Source: a virus (Duplodnaviria; Heunggongvirae; Uroviricota; Caudoviricetes). From it: a DNA stretch of 21,150 nt. Numbering within the stretch: position 1 is the first letter of the stretch; every line of letters begins with the position of its first letter. The stretch is from positions 1 to 21,150 of the IMG/VR virus record IMGVR_UViG_2648501392_000022, one strand, 5' to 3'. Positions 3,001 through 6,000 of this stretch are shown here, one piece after another. The position numbers were made by a program.

Positions 3001-6000
3001 CATCGTGATCCGGCCAGTACACGCTCACGCGCTGCAGGTCATTCTTTGCCATCAGATTGGCATGAGCACATTCGCAAGCCGCAGCCAGCCCGGTGGCGCT
3101 GTTCTCGTCACGGTCGGCAAAAATAATCAGGTGCAGAACACCAGCTGGTACGCGAAACTTTTTCATAAAGCCGCTGTTAATGGTTGCCCAGGTGTTCACG
3201 TTATAAATCTGGTGCGCTGACAGCGCTGTTTCGATGCCTTCGGCGATACCCAGAGTGCTGGCGACAGGAAACATGCGGATAGCTACAGAACGAGCGTGAT
3301 CCAAATAGTTATCTTCCTGCAGGGATTTGAGGCGCTTTGCACTGCTACCGATATCTGCTTTTTTATCACCATCAAGCAGAGTCTGGTGCAGATAGCACAA
3401 CTCCCCTTTATCGTCCGTAGCAAGTGAATAAAGAGACTGGAACACACTCCCGTTGTGTCTCTGCCTGGCATTGAACCGGATCGCCTCAGCAGGAAGACTG
3501 AATATTCCACGAGAATTAAGATACGCTGCGCCGGATGTACCACGCAGTGCCTCCAGTTTTGAAAACTTGCTCAATACCCGTTTGCGTAAGCTGGTGGCGC
3601 TGCTGGTTACCGGGATTTTAACCCGTTGGTAATCATTACCGATCAGGCGGTCTATTTCGGTACAAATCTCGTTAAATGGCTTCGCCTGTGTCAGGGTGAC
3701 AAGTTTCATACCATCGCCACTACCACATACACAGATCCACGTTCCTGCACCGTCGCGGTCGTCAATTCGGAACTTGCCACGTGCACCGCATACCGGGCAT
3801 TCACCCTTGAAGTGATTTTTTCCGGTTATCGGCGGCAGACCGAAGTGCTCTAATATTTCAGGCCAGCGGCCTTTCGCTGCATCTGCTGTTTTCATCTTAC
3901 TGACTCAGACTGTTTATATTTTTCTGGAGTTGGTGCTTTGCCTGCATGATGCGCCAGGCCTCACTGCCTGCCGGTATCTCACGTCGTTCATCACGTTCCT
4001 GAGATAAATCAATCGTTGTTTGTGCGTTTTCAGTGACCTTCTGAACCCGCTGGTGGCCTTTGGCAAACCGGATCAGTTTGTGTCTGATGTAGTTATTTAC
4101 CTCAGGGGTAATTTCCATCGGAAAGTTACTCAGTCCGTCAGGCCACTCACCGAACTTTTCCCGGAAAGTGTGAGCACACCATCCGTCACTGACTGGACGC
4201 CCCAGCGAAGCACGCTGGCGCTGATAAAATTTGATCTGACTCCACCAGGACTGTTTCTCTGCCTTCGTCGACTGATGCTGATTTTTACCCAGCTTATTAA
4301 GTTTGCGGCTAGTGTCAGTATCAACGTCTTCACCTCGCAGCGGCTTGTGTCCACATTTCGGGCAAACATAGACGCCTGCTGGCTTCATGTAGTGGCATTG
4401 AGGGCATTCATGTGGCAGTTTTTCGGCCCGTTCCTCAACTGCCCGGCGCGCGCTTTCCTCCATGCCGTCAGACTTACCGGGAAGCTCGTCGTACTCGATT
4501 GAATCCGGATAACCCAAACGGTGCACGGTGCCGCTGTGATCGAAGATAAGGCAGGACTCTTTACCCGGTGCGGTGCGCAGCCCACGCCCGAGAGCCTGCA
4601 ACCAGCGAATTTCGCTTTTTGTTGGCCTGGCGTAGATGATGCAACGAACGTCACTATCAAAGCCGGCCACCAGAACGCCCACACTAACGATGATTTTCGT
4701 TGCACCGGTTTCAAAGCGGTGAATGATGGTCTGGCGCTCATCTACCGGAGTGTCGGCGGTCATTACCTCAGCGTTAACACCCGCCAGGTTAAACTGGATT
4801 GTCAGATAATTGGCGTGAGCTACGTTGACGCAGAAAGCGATGGTAGGTAAATCCCGACCATTCTCCAGCCAGTTCTGTACGATGTCGCCCACCAGCGTAG
4901 AGCCGCACATGATTTCAGCCAGCTGTGTTTCGTTGTAATCGCGGCCGTACTCAAGCGAAGATGTGGTTTTAACACCTTTCAGATCCGGCTTAGTTGGCGC
5001 GTAAAATTCGTATTTACTCAGATCGCCACGCTGGATTAACTCGCCGATGGTGGTCGGCTTAATCAGTCGGTCATAGTATTTGCCCAGGAACGGAGAAAAC
5101 GGAGTACCCGACAGGCCAATCACCTTTACGCCTTTGCCGCGCAGACGTTCGATATCCTTCAGGATGCGTTTTTTACGCAGGTGCGCTTCGTCGATAATCA
5201 GCAGATCGATATTTTCAGGAAAAACACGACGAATAAGCGTGTCAGCGCTGGCAATCTGAATTTTCCGGTCCGGATCGTAGTTCGGGTGATCCGCCCAGAT
5301 ATAACCGATTTCATCTCCAGGTAAACCATACTGCACGAACCGATTAGCCGTCTGACCAATCAGGATGGTGTACGGAACACAGAACAGAACACGCATACCA
5401 CGGCTGACAAAACCAGCAACTATGAAGGCTGCCAGACCCGTTTTACCGCTACCTGTTGGCGAGTAAACCATGAAGGTGTCGTTTGCCTTCCAGTCACGGC
5501 GCAACATGTTTAACGCTCGTTCCTGTGCAAAATTCGGCGTGATCGTCAGCTCCATTGTGCAGCTCCCGTGCTGATGAGATAATAATTTTGTGATGTGGTT
5601 TTCATGGATTCCCCCTCACATGGCTGGTGGCCTCCCCAAAGGCTGCCAGCCTCCCTTCTGATTCAGCTCCTCTGAAAAATCACTCTTCCAGGAAGAACCC
5701 TTTTCGTTTCTCAGCGCCTGAGCGCTTTGTACTACCTTGCTGATACGGGCGTTTTTTTAAATTGCGCCCTTAAGACAGTGATCTACTTAACCAATGGATC
5801 TCTCCTGTTGGAAAAGACCCTATTCCTGCCCCAACACCCAATCCCCCCTTACCCCCCTTACCCTCTTCCCCATAAAAACGTACTACTTCCCTAGTACACA
5901 TGAGGAGTTGGGTCAGTTGGTTGCCAACCTGAACAGGCACCTTTAAGCCTGCTTCTGTTCGGGTACCTTTAAACCCGAAACAATGAGGAGCGCGATTGCG

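What the first reader, a model, noticed from the sequence alone, without database searches (positions are those of the whole stretch)
5545..5968. 410-bp non-coding region upstream of the helicase: tiny coupled leader ORF plus a polypyrimidine tract with direct repeats
A 19-codon ORF (5545-5604, minus strand, RBS GAGGGGG) overlaps the helicase start. Upstream lies a C/T-rich tract (about 5818-5872; G-rich on the transcribed strand) with CCCC(C)CTTACCC direct repeats and duplicated ACCTTTAA motifs. Low-complexity tracts next to helicase-primase modules are candidates for a replication origin or a structured regulatory RNA.
Basis: seen in the sequence. Interest (0 to 1): 0.5.

Follow-up and report, generated by a model that had tools for sequence, protein, structure and literature searches.

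The report
Conserved control region of phage replication module
The non-coding stretch upstream of this prophage's helicase is a strongly conserved, undescribed control element (G-rich tract, hairpins, Dam sites, boxes resembling tryptophan-repressor sites) that is most likely the unmapped replication origin of a phage replication module also carried by dangerous Shiga-toxin phages.

Summary
The window is an E. coli lambdoid prophage. The finding lies between a small conserved gene (5969-6277, minus) and an Eru1-like SF2 helicase plus toprim primase.

The non-coding DNA is at least as conserved as the helicase gene and stays linked to it while the cro/cI region is swapped. It is a composite element:
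- One or two sense-strand hairpins with an invariant UUAAAGGU loop and covarying stems.
- Two 18-bp palindromes about 150 bp apart. The first scores like a genuine E. coli TrpR operator.
- A G-run pair (G6-TAA-G6) on the non-template strand, the only G-quadruplex motif in 21 kb. It recurs in 69 of 94 related loci across Enterobacterales.
- A conserved block rich in GATC, followed by an A-run.

Relatives without the G tract carry a RepL-like initiator or another large ORF at this position.

Best reading (0.45, inferred): this is the module's replication origin or initiation-control region, possibly fired by transcription. Rivals are an RNA leader and a TrpR-gated transcription checkpoint. The leader ORF is real but lineage-specific, and its peptide is not under selection. 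No paper found maps an origin for this module.

The parts
5546..5605 (-). 19-codon leader ORF (MKTTSQNYYLISTGAAQWS*). Its TGA (5548-5546) overlaps the helicase ATG (5555-5553).
   Evidence: sequence; the ORF is open (18-19 codons) in 24 of 25 nucleotide variants from 82 loci and truncated to 12 codons in phage YP3. Variation is spread equally over codon positions 1, 2 and 3. It is absent in the Klebsiella, Providencia and TL-2011c relatives.
5611..5617 (-). Shine-Dalgarno GAGGGGG, 5 nt upstream of the leader ATG.
   Evidence: Invariant or GAGGAGG in relatives.
5622..5651 (.). Conserved 12-bp imperfect hairpin (GGCTGGCAGCCT / AGGCCACCAGCC on the sense strand) just upstream of the SD.
   Evidence: inverted repeat I4.: -21 kcal/mol on the sense strand and -24 on the antisense strand; present in all type I and type II loci, with little covariation.
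5655..5727 (-). Remnant of a deleted STM0899-like gene, including the conserved TCCTGGAAGAG.
   Evidence: Fels-1 and phi467 carry an intact 122-aa ORF (phrog_1347) exactly here; the CTGGAAGAG piece is kept in all deletion variants.
5729..5746 (.). Palindrome O2 (sense GTATCAGCAAGGTAGTAC), a weak TrpR-operator-like box.
   Evidence: 12.3 bits with a TrpR PWM, second best in the window; a site of at least 12 bits lies downstream of the G tract (+107 to +136) in 28 of 69 loci, often 14-23 bits.
5747..5769 (.). A7 run (5752-5758 is T7 on the + strand) clamped by GGGCG/CGCCC.
   Evidence: an A5-8 run sits 5-8 nt upstream of O2 in all relatives with O2, while the GC clamp changes position.
5774..5817 (-). 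Conserved block TCTTTTCCAACAG ... GGTTAAGTAGATCACTGT with two GATC sites (5780, 5797).
   Evidence: identity 0.97; the block recurs in TL-2011c, Klebsiella, Serratia, Xenorhabdus and others. GATC is 14.4/kb in the 150-nt core against 4.2/kb outside; single copy in the window.
5818..5872 (-). G-rich tract on the non-template (sense) strand. Core GGGGGGTAAGGGGGG at 5857-5843, preceded by GGGGAAGAGGG and followed by GGGTGTTGGGG.
   Evidence: only canonical G4 motif in the window, G4Hunter 2.4; 60% G and 2% C on the sense strand. G5-8 N1-4 G5-8 in 69 of 94 related loci, always on the sense strand, 47-108 nt (in the loci measured) after the small gene's stop.
5880..5897 (.). Palindrome O1 (GTACTAGGGAAGTAGTAC on the sense strand), TrpR-operator-like.
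   Evidence: 0 mismatches to GTACTAN6TAGTAC; 17.7 bits, against 14.3-21.3 leave-one-out for genuine operators and 17.4 as the highest score in 200 shuffles; a site within 70 nt upstream of the G tract, mostly at -38 to -41, in 36 of 69 loci, up to 24.4 bits; arms conserved, spacer variable.
5932..5953 (-). Hairpin H2, loop UUAAAGGU (5946-5939).
5958..5979 (-). Hairpin H1, loop UUAAAGGU (5972-5965). The stop codon of the small gene lies in the loop.
   Evidence: 97.5% of cells paired against 77.7% in shuffles, 5 of 7 pairs with compensatory changes, 0 of 500 shuffles as good; only 85.1% paired on the antisense strand.
5969..6277 (-). Small conserved gene (102 aa, phrog_852) with the invariant ENRARHEANxRLR and PPLA(G) motifs. 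Its 3' half belongs to the conserved module.
   Evidence: the mosaic boundary is at about 6100-6120. Homologues sit upstream of every helicase relative examined, including Vibrio and Pseudoalteromonas phages. It is unannotated in TL-2011c. The structure model is of low confidence.
3897..5555 (-). SF2 (DEAD/ResIII, RadD-like) helicase, Eru1A-like.
   Evidence: 66% identity to TL-2011c Eru1A.
2927..3895 (-). Toprim primase with a T7/P4-type zinc ribbon, Eru1B-like.
6550..6578 (-). pR-like promoter (TTGAAT-17-TATTAT) that would transcribe cro-like gene, small gene, the element and the helicase in that order.
   Evidence: It is the only sigma-70-like site found in 5300-6800.

Best explanation
The region is the cis-acting initiation and control region, most likely the replication origin, of an Eru1-like helicase-primase replicon.

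Shown here:
- It is a single-copy composite element, at least as conserved as the neighbouring genes.
- It is inherited together with the 3' half of a small conserved gene and with the SF2 helicase and toprim primase, while the immunity region upstream is exchanged.
- Its invariant core is a pair of long G runs on the non-template strand. A conserved GATC-rich block and an A run follow. Upstream lie one or two sense-strand hairpins with a fixed UUAAAGGU loop.
- In about half of the relatives, two 18-bp palindromes about 150 bp apart bracket the core. They match the E. coli TrpR operator matrix.

Inferred mechanism:
1. Transcription from pR runs through the element.
2. The G-rich transcript and the G-rich displaced strand form a short R-loop or DNA:RNA hybrid G-quadruplex, as at mitochondrial CSB II.
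3. The displaced sense strand folds into its hairpins.
4. The PriA/RadD-like SF2 helicase and the primase load on this branched structure. The small basic protein may assist.
5. Dam/SeqA acting at the GATC sites, and a TrpR-type repressor acting at the two boxes, modulate firing or read-through.

The 19-codon leader ORF and the hairpin in front of it are a separate add-on, restricted to one sub-lineage. They probably deliver ribosomes to the helicase start by translational coupling.
For: Conservation and linkage:
- 50 distinct type I loci show 0.96-0.99 identity at 5580-5699 and 0.96-0.97 at 5790-5879. The helicase coding sequence shows about 0.87-0.98, and the sequence upstream of about 6120 shows 0.34-0.75.
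- The same element occurs in phages Fostie, YP3 and ENT39118.

Core conserved over long distances:
- The G-run pair and the GGTTAGGTAGATC block occur in Stx2a phage TL-2011c, Klebsiella ST340-VIM1phi10.1 and Providencia PSTCR3.
- They occur in 69 of 94 loci across Enterobacterales. The tract is always G-rich on the sense strand and tied to the end of the small gene, not to the helicase start.

G4 motif: unique in the window, G4Hunter 2.4.

GATC: 3.4-fold enriched, and every core has at least one site.

Single-strand structure: the UUAAAGGU hairpin shows strong covariation and pairs better on the sense strand.

Alternative-origin argument:
- All 22 G-tract-less loci carry an ORF of 135-312 aa between the small gene and the helicase.
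- Four of the ten such ORFs tested, plus those of the Vibrio and Pseudoalteromonas phages, are RepL-like winged-helix initiators. The Vibrio phage also has iteron-like repeats upstream.
- None of the ten ORFs tested from G-tract loci is RepL-like. They are HNH homing endonucleases or small unknown proteins.

Other points:
- The element is single copy, with no pL-side counterpart.
- No sigma-70 promoter, intrinsic terminator or Rfam family explains the region.
- The helicase has weak PriA/RecG/RadD affinities.
- The Eru papers map no origin for this module (PMC8044961, PMC8951638).
Against: - No origin activity has been measured. The argument rests on position, conservation and analogy.
- Classical origin hallmarks are missing: no DnaA boxes in 5605-5968, no array of three or more iterons, and only a 7-13-nt A/T run instead of a long AT-rich unwinding element.
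- The G-rich zone is only about 55-80 nt, and downstream G falls to 22%. Any R-loop would be short.
- G.U pairs that fit only the sense strand are what an RNA element would show. A displaced DNA strand fits too, but less naturally.
- TrpR-type operators are normally transcription-control sites.
- Origins of comparable replicons can lie inside the initiator or helicase gene (lambda O, N15 repA). That was not examined here.
- Six of the ten intervening ORFs tested from G-tract-less relatives have no recognisable initiator domain.
Confidence: 0.45

Rival explanations
1. RNA-level leader. The element acts in the pR transcript as a structured untranslated leader. It would control read-through (processive antitermination of the put or nut/boxA type), processing or stability (the SD-like G runs binding 30S subunits), or translation of the helicase-primase genes. 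It would have no origin function.
For: - The hairpins covary and pair better on the sense strand: 97.5% against 85.1%.
- The sense RNA folds with z = -5.1.
- The element lies inside the transcribed operon, between two genes.
- UCUUUUCCAA resembles rrn/lambda boxA UCUUUAACAA at 8 of 10 positions. This is my own comparison from memory of the boxA consensus.
- The G runs resemble strong Shine-Dalgarno sequences. In the Morganellaceae versions UAAGGGGGGUGAUC is nearly complementary to the 16S 3' end (for the sequences; my comparison).
Against: - No Rfam family matches, even at E up to 10.
- There is no second copy in the leftward operon, as an N/nut system would require.
- The antisense strand folds equally well, z = -6.1.
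- The best-conserved parts (G runs, GATC block, palindromes with invariant arms and variable spacers) are conserved as primary sequence or DNA symmetry, not as covarying helices.
- The predicted hairpin around CUUUUCC is not kept in relatives.
- GATC enrichment has no RNA rationale.
Confidence: 0.25
2. Transcription checkpoint only. The two palindromes are operators for host TrpR (with tryptophan), or for a repressor of the same specificity. They block or loop the DNA between the early genes and the replication genes, so that replication-gene expression responds to tryptophan. On this view the G tract and the other blocks are accessory.
For: - O1 scores 17.7 bits with a matrix built from the five MG1655 operators. 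That is within the leave-one-out range of true operators (14.3-21.3) and above all 200 shuffles.
- Operator sequences were verified from the genome for four of the five. The aroH site was only partly within the stretch read, and its left half comes from memory. The consensus is confirmed by PDB 1TRO as quoted in PMC2504314.
- In 36 of 69 loci a site of at least 12 bits, up to 24.4, lies within 70 nt upstream of the G tract, mostly at -38 to -41. In 28 of these a second site lies downstream at +107 to +136. In most E. coli-group loci the two sites are 149-151 bp apart.
- The arms are conserved and the spacers vary, as in natural operators.
- The boxes persist while cro/cI alleles change, so they are not operators of the immunity repressor.
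Against: - No promoter overlaps either box. All known TrpR operators overlap promoters.
- O2 in this window is weak: 12.3 bits, which is the level of the shuffle maxima.
- About half of the G-tract loci lack such boxes, including TL-2011c, the Morganellaceae and Serratia. They carry other repeats instead. The boxes are therefore an accessory layer and do not explain the invariant core.
- Binding by TrpR is untested. A module-encoded protein could recognise the same sequence. The small protein shows no similarity to TrpR.
Confidence: 0.2
3. Antisense small RNA. A + strand promoter inside the leader ORF (TTGTGC-17 nt-GATAAT, 5556-5584) produces an OOP-like antisense RNA of about 70 nt. The 5622-5651 hairpin would terminate it, and it would cover the leader SD and start and repress helicase translation.
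For: - The -35 and -10 hexamers are invariant while the 17-nt spacer varies among relatives.
- On the + strand the hairpin pairs perfectly with two G.U pairs, and it is 2-3 kcal/mol more stable in most variants.
- Nucleotide conservation in the first 11 leader codons is not explained by selection on the peptide.
Against: - The consensus scan did not call this promoter, because the -35 matches only 3 of 6.
- The stem is followed by UCCCUUCU, only 4 U in 8, which is below the terminator criterion.
- It would account only for 5556-5665, not for the G tract region.
- No transcript data exist.
Confidence: 0.07
4. Non-functional leftover: decayed coding sequence plus low-complexity DNA.
For: Part of the region (about 5655-5727) is indeed the remnant of a deleted STM0899-like gene.
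Against: - Conservation equals or exceeds that of the coding neighbours over many lineages.
- The hairpins covary.
- Motifs sit at fixed positions across genera.
Confidence: 0.03

Closest known systems
Eru1 'EHEC phage replication unit' of Stx2a phages (TL-2011c; Llarena et al. 2021, PMC8044961; PMC8951638)
   Same: - SF2 DEAD/DEAH helicase followed by a toprim primase, downstream of cro and a LexA-like CI.
- The helicase is 66% identical.
- TL-2011c also has the small gene (unannotated), a G5-TAA-G5 tract and the GGTTAGGTAGATCACTGT block upstream of its helicase.
   Different: - The third gene differs: a 285-aa phrog_6204 protein here, NinB/DUF1367 there.
- TL-2011c keeps a gp29 nuclease-like ORF. 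It lacks the TrpR-like boxes, the UUAAAGGU hairpins and the leader ORF.
- The papers describe only the proteins. No cis element or origin is described.
Mitochondrial CSB II / OH priming site (G5AG7; PMC4176368, PMC3488243)
   Same: - Two long G runs separated by 1-3 nt on the non-template strand, downstream of a promoter and next to genes or sites of replication.
- Such a pair is sufficient for a co-transcriptional DNA:RNA hybrid G-quadruplex and a stable short R-loop that yields a primer.
   Different: - No evidence here of transcript termination, an R-loop or priming.
- The polymerase would be E. coli RNAP, not a T7-like enzyme.
- The resemblance is in how it might work, not in family membership.
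Transcription-driven and R-loop origins of plasmids and phages (ColE1 RNA II, T4 ori(uvsY)/ori(34), pAMbeta1 ori downstream of repE). Recalled from established literature, not checked here.
   Same: The origin lies downstream of a promoter or gene. The read-through transcript forms a persistent hybrid, and a structure-specific helicase or primosome then loads.
   Different: No sequence similarity. None of those uses a G-run pair with flanking repressor boxes. The loading helicase here would be phage-encoded SF2.
E. coli TrpR operators (trpEDCBA, aroH, trpR, mtr, aroL)
   Same: - An 18-bp palindrome GTACTAG-N4-CTAGTAC.
- The phage boxes score 12-24 bits with the operator matrix.
- They vary at the same positions as natural operators, for example CTAG to CTCG or CCAG.
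   Different: - They do not overlap a recognisable promoter.
- They occur as a pair about 150 bp apart, or as a tandem 24-26 bp apart in Xenorhabdus and Erwinia prophages, flanking a G tract.
- No TrpR-regulated phage function turned up in the one literature search run.
Lambda ori (four 19-bp iterons plus an AT-rich region inside gene O), and RepL-type initiator-plus-iteron origins
   Same: - It sits in the early rightward operon, next to the replication genes.
- It is inherited with its replication proteins across mosaic boundaries.
- RepL-type relatives of this same helicase have iteron-like repeats at the equivalent position.
   Different: - No iteron array and no long AT-rich stretch.
- It lies outside any gene.
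- No dedicated winged-helix initiator is encoded.
Lambda nutR (boxA/boxB) and HK022 put antitermination RNAs
   Same: Sense-strand hairpins with a conserved loop in the first non-coding gap downstream of pR, and a boxA-like UCUUUUCCAA.
   Different: - The loop is 8 nt, not a GNRA-like pentaloop.
- The order and spacing differ: the hairpins lie about 120 nt upstream of the boxA-like block.
- There is no pL-side copy and no Rfam hit.

Membership tests
Eru1-type replication unit | SF2 DEAD/DEAH helicase immediately followed by a toprim primase, downstream of cro and opposite a LexA-like CI | tested here: met
   Pfam ResIII/DEAD/Helicase_C and Toprim_3/Zn_Ribbon_Prim. Gene order. 66% identity to TL-2011c Eru1A.
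Eru1-type replication unit | Third gene eru1C (DUF1367/NinB-like) | tested here: not met
   The third gene here is a 285-aa phrog_6204 protein without that domain. I therefore call the module Eru1-like rather than Eru1.
G-quadruplex-forming sequence | Four or more G3+ runs with loops of 1-7 nt, and G4Hunter above 1.5 | tested here: met
   Seven overlapping matches at 5829-5871 on the minus strand, and none elsewhere. G4Hunter 2.4.
G-quadruplex-forming sequence | The structure actually forms (K+ dependence, DMS protection) | not testable with these tools
   Needs biophysics or in vivo probing.
R-loop / hybrid-G4 priming site (CSB II-like) | Two or more long G runs on the non-template strand downstream of an active promoter | tested here: met
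   G6-TAA-G6 on the sense strand. The pR-like promoter at 6578-6550 lies about 700 nt upstream on the same strand. The strand polarity is kept in all 69 loci.
R-loop / hybrid-G4 priming site (CSB II-like) | Transcript ends or a persistent RNA-DNA hybrid at the tract, used as a primer | not testable with these tools
   No transcript or DRIP data. Downstream G content is only 22%, so only a short hybrid zone is expected.
Iteron-type origin (lambda ori, RepL/Rep plasmid-type) | Array of three or more direct repeats for an initiator | tested here: not met
   The only repeats are a 9-nt unit at 2.3 copies, two palindromes and two hairpins.
Iteron-type origin (lambda ori, RepL/Rep plasmid-type) | Adjacent AT-rich unwinding region and/or DnaA boxes | tested here: not met
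   Only an A7 run within a 13-nt A/T stretch. No DnaA box with one mismatch or fewer in 5605-5968.
Iteron-type origin (lambda ori, RepL/Rep plasmid-type) | Autonomous replication of the cloned fragment with its proteins | not testable with these tools
   Experiment required.
TrpR operator | 18-bp dyad matching the operator matrix or consensus GTACTAGTTAACTAGTAC | tested here: met
   O1 scores 17.7 bits, within the leave-one-out range 14.3-21.3 of true operators and above 200 of 200 shuffles. O2 scores 12.3 bits, which is weak. Relatives reach 24.4 bits.
TrpR operator | Overlaps the -35, -10 or start site of the promoter it represses | tested here: not met
   No sigma-70-like promoter at either box by scan or by inspection of aligned relatives.
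TrpR operator | Bound by TrpR with L-tryptophan | not testable with these tools
   EMSA or ChIP needed.
N/nut antitermination site | boxA followed by a boxB hairpin, with sites in both early operons | tested here: not met
   The boxA-like block matches 8 of 10 but lies downstream of the hairpins. The loop is 8 nt. No copy exists on the + strand operon.
Described RNA families (Rfam 15) | Covariance-model match | tested here: not met
   Nothing at the gathering threshold in the window or in five related loci. Only chance-level hits at E of 4-9.
Translationally coupled leader ORF | Own SD and start codon, with the stop overlapping or abutting the downstream start | tested here: met
   GAGGGGG-5 nt-ATG; ATGGAGCTGA overlap.
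Translationally coupled leader ORF | Reading frame or peptide maintained by selection across relatives | tested here: inconclusive
   The frame is open in 24 of 25 variants, but divergence is low. Substitutions are equally frequent at all codon positions. The ORF is absent from more distant relatives.

The most novel reading that the evidence does not exclude
This would be a bacteriophage replication origin that works like the mitochondrial heavy-strand origin. Read-through transcription from pR over a conserved G6-N3-G6 pair on the non-template strand would create a DNA:RNA hybrid G-quadruplex or short R-loop. A phage-encoded PriA/RadD-like SF2 helicase and a toprim primase would use it as their entry site. 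The displaced strand's conserved hairpins would act as loading signals. Host TrpR (tryptophan) and Dam/SeqA would gate firing. It would be the unmapped origin class of the Eru1-type replicons carried by highly virulent Stx2a phages.
Probability: 0.15. Interest if true: 0.85.

Novelty: new variant of a known kind. Interest (0 to 1): 0.62.

Why it matters
Eru1-type helicase-primase modules replace lambda O/P in the Stx2a phages of the O103:H25 and O104:H4 outbreak strains. They have been linked to less stable lysogeny (PMC8044961, PMC8951638). Neither paper maps their origin or describes any cis-acting site.

This analysis defines a compact element of about 250 bp, conserved across Enterobacterales, with separable parts: the G-run pair, the GATC block, the hairpin loop and the repressor-like boxes. 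That turns the question 'where and how do these phages start replication?' into a set of direct experiments.

If the G tract acts through an R-loop or G-quadruplex, it would be a rare functional G4 in an enterobacterial phage and a bacterial counterpart of mitochondrial primer formation. If the boxes bind TrpR, it would link prophage replication to tryptophan availability. The one literature search run here found no report of such a link.

Tried and rejected
- Rfam, at the gathering threshold and at E up to 10, on the window and five related loci: nothing relevant.
- Coding potential of the three ORFs of 50-56 aa inside the region: no PHROG hit. They were rejected as genes.
- Consensus promoter and terminator scan: only pR and two weak terminator-like sites. 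Manual inspection of aligned relatives around O1 and O2 found no conserved -35/-10 pair.
- The small 102-aa protein: no Pfam, NCBIfam or PDB match. The AlphaFold model is three helices at pLDDT 56.7, so no fold search was run. There is no similarity to TrpR. I rejected the ideas that it is a CII or TrpR homologue.
- Scan of viral contigs for GGGGGGTAAGGGGGG: 17 of the 80 loci returned are Eru1-like and the rest are unrelated. The 15-mer alone is not diagnostic.
- Plasmid search for a mini-replicon built on this element: only a 42.9-kb circular phage-like molecule and large plasmids with an inserted prophage. Not informative about the origin.
- A predicted hairpin GGGUCUUUUCC/GGAGAGAUCC is not kept in relatives and was rejected.
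- DnaA boxes and extra copies of the core motifs elsewhere in the window: none beyond chance.
- A sigma-54 site reported in STM0901 (PMC3844500) lies inside the primase gene and is irrelevant here.
- Folding energies do not discriminate the strands: z = -5.1 against -6.1.

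
Full report
**Context.** The window matches a prophage of E. coli E110019 at 100% identity. Related DNA occurs in 102 of 5,426 complete E. coli genomes.

On the minus strand the gene order is as follows:
- a pR-like promoter (6578-6550);
- a YdaS/Cro-like gene (6527-6240);
- a 102-aa gene of unknown function (6277-5969, phrog_852);
- the 413-bp gap under study;
- an SF2 DEAD/ResIII helicase (5555-3897);
- a toprim primase with a zinc ribbon (3895-2927);
- a 285-aa ORF;
- a frameshifted Q antiterminator.

A LexA-like CI gene is divergent (6647-7339). The helicase is 66% identical to Eru1A of Stx2a phage TL-2011c. The module is therefore a relative of the 'EHEC phage replication unit 1' described in PMC8044961 and PMC8951638. 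Those papers treat only the proteins and map no origin.

**Checking the observation.**
- The leader ORF is 5546-5605, one base off. It has GAGGGGG 5 nt upstream, and its stop overlaps the helicase ATG.
- The tract 5818-5872 is 82% pyrimidine on the + strand. On the sense strand that is 60% G and 2% C. It is the most strand-biased 55-mer in the window.
- CCCCCCTTA is repeated 2.3 times.
- ACCTTTAA occurs at 5939 and 5965.

**Conservation.** I collected relatives from three sources: phage records, IMG/VR and one genome per species.

Among 50 distinct close relatives ('type I'), mean pairwise identity per 30-nt bin was:

| Region | Identity |
|---|---|
| 5580-5699 | 0.96-0.99 |
| 5790-5879 (the tract) | 0.96-0.97 |
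| 5910-5969 | 0.95 |
| helicase coding sequence | about 0.87-0.98 |
| upstream of about 6120 | 0.34-0.75 |

The non-coding DNA is therefore at least as constrained as the genes. The unit that travels together runs from the 3' half of the small gene through the gap into the helicase and primase. The cro/cI region is exchanged freely.

Fels-1 and phi467 ('type II') carry an intact 122-aa ORF (STM0899, phrog_1347) where the window has only a remnant, at about 5655-5727.

**Anatomy, read on the sense (minus) strand.**

(a) Hairpins. Directly after, or overlapping, the stop of the small gene lie two hairpins, 5979-5958 and 5953-5932. Their stems differ but their 8-nt loops are identical (UUAAAGGU).
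- Relatives have one or two such hairpins, with at least seven different stem sequences.
- On 23 distinct copies, 97.5% of cells pair, against 77.7% after shuffling.
- Five of seven pairs show compensatory changes, and 0 of 500 shuffles do as well.
- On the opposite strand only 85.1% pair, because 20 cells are G.U.
- A single strand of sense polarity therefore folds here. It could be RNA or the displaced DNA strand.

(b) Palindrome O1 (5897-5880). GTACTAGGGAAGTAGTAC has invariant arms and a variable spacer.

(c) The G tract.
- The sequence is GGGGAAGAGGG-TAA-GGGGGG-TAA-GGGGGG-ATT-GGG-TGTT-GGGG.
- It is the only canonical G4 motif in 21 kb, with G4Hunter 2.4.

(d) Conserved block. TCTTTTCCAACAG...GGTTAAGTAGATCACTGT carries two GATC sites.

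(e) An A7 run.

(f) Palindrome O2 (5746-5729).

(g) The gene remnant.

(h) A stable hairpin (5651-5622), the SD and the leader ORF.

**Distant relatives.**
- A G-run pair of the form G5-8 N1-4 G5-8 is present exactly once in 69 of 94 loci. The spacer may be TAA, TTT, AAA, TT or TA.
- These loci come from Escherichia, Enterobacter, Citrobacter, Klebsiella, Pantoea, Yersinia, Serratia, Photorhabdus, Xenorhabdus, Proteus, Morganella, Providencia, Erwinia and Pectobacterium.
- The pair is always on the sense strand. It lies 47-108 nt past the small gene's stop in the loci measured, whatever the distance to the helicase.
- Fels-1 and phi467 have GGGGAGGGGG instead.
- TL-2011c has GGGGGTAAGGGGG followed by CATAGGTTAGGTAGATCACTGT.
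- In the 150 nt from the tract onward, GATC occurs at 14.4 per kb, against 4.2 per kb in the rest of the loci. Every core has at least one site, and 78% have two or more.
- No second copy of the core motifs exists elsewhere in the window.

**The palindromes.** They resemble the E. coli trp operator.
- I read the trp, trpR, mtr and aroL operators from MG1655. The aroH site was only partly inside the stretch I fetched, so its left half is from memory.
- The symmetric consensus is confirmed by the sequence quoted for PDB 1TRO in PMC2504314.
- A matrix built from the five operators gives O1 17.7 bits. Leave-one-out scores of the true operators are 14.3-21.3, and the best of 200 shuffles of the 21-kb window is 17.4.
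- O2 scores 12.3 bits, which is no better than shuffle maxima. O1 and O2 are nevertheless the two best sites in the window.
- Across 69 distinct loci, 36 have a site of at least 12 bits within 70 nt upstream of the G tract. Most score 17-24 bits and sit at -38 to -41.
- Twenty-eight of these also have a second site downstream, at +107 to +136. In most E. coli-group loci the two sites are 149-151 bp apart.
- Some Xenorhabdus and Erwinia prophages carry two sites in tandem, 24-26 bp apart.
- The boxes persist while cro/cI alleles change, so they are not operators of the immunity repressor.
- The small protein shows no similarity to TrpR.
- No promoter overlaps the boxes, which is unlike every known TrpR operator.
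- About half of the G-tract loci have other repeats instead, for example GTCTAAAC-type repeats in the Morganellaceae.
- I conclude that the boxes are an accessory regulatory layer, probably read by host TrpR. That last step is an inference.

**What the element is linked to.**
- All 22 genome loci without a G tract carry an ORF of 135-312 aa between the small gene and the helicase.
- Four of the ten such ORFs tested are RepL-like winged-helix replication initiators. So are the equivalents in the Vibrio and Pseudoalteromonas phages. The Vibrio phage also has iteron-like repeats (ACGACAGAACCTGTCGC, twice) in front of it.
- Of the 55 G-tract genome loci, 31 have no ORF of 60 aa or more in the gap.
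- None of the ten ORFs tested from the others is RepL-like. They are HNH homing endonucleases (NUMOD4 plus HNH_3), STM0899-like proteins or small unknown proteins.
- The same helicase-primase pair therefore comes either with a dedicated initiator plus repeats or with the G-tract element.
- This is the strongest indirect argument that the element supplies origin function, but it remains indirect.

**Mechanism proposed.** The shown parts are the anatomy, the conservation, the strand polarity, the covariation and the linkage. The steps below are inferred.
1. pR transcription crosses the tract.
2. Two long G runs on the non-template strand are enough for a co-transcriptional DNA:RNA hybrid G-quadruplex and a stable short R-loop. 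At mitochondrial CSB II (G5AG7) this yields the replication primer (PMC4176368, PMC3488243).
3. The displaced sense strand could fold into its conserved hairpins.
4. The helicase has weak PriA/RecG/RadD affinities. With the primase, it would load on this structure.
5. Dam/SeqA and the TrpR-type boxes would modulate the event.

Points against this mechanism:
- There are no DnaA boxes, no iteron array and no long AT-rich region.
- The G-rich zone is short.
- The G.U pattern fits RNA best.
- The origin could lie inside a gene.

I put 0.45 on 'origin or initiation-control region' and about 0.15 on the specific R-loop/G4 mechanism.

**Rivals.**
- An RNA leader acting in antitermination, stability or translation: 0.25. 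It is favoured by the sense-strand hairpins, a boxA-like UCUUUUCCAA and SD-like G runs. It is weakened by the absence of any Rfam hit, by the DNA-type conservation of palindromes and GATC sites, and by the lack of a pL-side copy.
- A pure TrpR transcription checkpoint: 0.20.
- An OOP-like antisense RNA from a candidate promoter at 5556-5584: 0.07. It would explain only the leader region.
- Junk: 0.03.

**The leader ORF.**
- It is open in 24 of 25 nucleotide variants.
- Substitutions fall equally on all three codon positions.
- One functional phage (YP3) truncates it.
- It is missing in the Klebsiella, Providencia and TL-2011c relatives.
- It most likely acts as a ribosome-delivery device for the helicase start, which has only a modest SD of its own. 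It is not a peptide gene.

**Novelty.** Neither of the two Eru papers read nor any of the five literature searches run describes this element. It is best filed as a new variant of a known kind, a phage replication-control or origin region, with two unusual and testable features: a conserved G4/R-loop-prone G-run pair, and operator-like boxes of host TrpR specificity.

Noticed in passing
window 676-737 (+) and 738-928 (-): Full-length Rfam matches to the anti-GcvB sRNA AgvB (96.5 bits) and to STnc100 (144.7 bits). They lie back to back downstream of the Q region, as in EHEC/EPEC prophages.
   Followed up: no
window about 1678-2079 and neighbours (L001 2278-2674, 1700-2062): RefSeq marks the Q antiterminator as frameshifted and a TerB-family gene as having an internal stop. 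An IS3 transposase lies further along the leftward operon. The prophage is probably defective for late gene expression.
   Followed up: no
window 5556-5584 (+), with the hairpin at 5622-5651: Candidate antisense promoter TTGTGC-17 nt-GATAAT inside the leader ORF. The hexamers are invariant and the spacer varies among relatives. It could produce an OOP-like RNA across the leader SD and start.
   Followed up: partly
L091-L170 (IMG/VR contigs holding GGGGGGTAAGGGGGG): Most contigs with this 15-mer are unrelated to the Eru1-like module. Many share a context: a C5-7 run 2-4 nt upstream, which could form a hairpin with the first G run, and T-rich repeats downstream such as TTCTCTTGTT. A low-GC group has a consensus promoter (TTGACA-17 nt-CATAAA) ending right at the G run. 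Several matches sit at contig ends.
   Followed up: no
L269, L272, L277, L280 (about 1000-1605) and L258 (951-1604): HNH homing endonuclease genes (NUMOD4 plus HNH_3) are inserted immediately upstream of the helicase in several prophages. In the G-tract loci they lie between the G-tract element and the helicase. This gap is a hot spot for selfish insertions.
   Followed up: partly
L088 (TL-2011c) about 1626-1900: A homologue of the small phrog_852 protein is encoded between cro and gp29 but is not annotated in the RefSeq record (motif EPVSFRKGNRARRSANTRLRVYV). The '530-bp non-coding gap' there is therefore partly coding.
   Followed up: partly
L005, L006, L269, L272, L277, L280, L290, downstream of the G tract: A mini-hairpin with a GAA loop closed by C-G, whose stem covaries: GTGCGAAGCAC, GCGCGAAGCGC, GCCCGAAGGGC. 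From memory, d(GCGAAGC)-type hairpins are known as exceptionally stable ssDNA hairpins at phage origins. It is absent from the window's own version.
   Followed up: no
window about 6585-6610 (-): A palindrome TTTATCGG-N4-CCGATAAA lies between cI and the cro-like gene. It is probably the CI/Cro operator and is unrelated to the GTACTA boxes.
   Followed up: no
L297 (NZ_CP083847.1, Enterobacter asburiae p16773_5): A 42.9-kb circular 'plasmid' with no replicon typing is essentially a complete phage genome carrying this same element and module. It may be a replicating or episomal form of the phage.
   Followed up: partly
L241, L255 (Xenorhabdus), +50 to +110 from the G tract: The TAGGTTARGTAG...GATC block is duplicated as a direct repeat of about 30 bp. 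This suggests it may be a protein-binding repeat.
   Followed up: no
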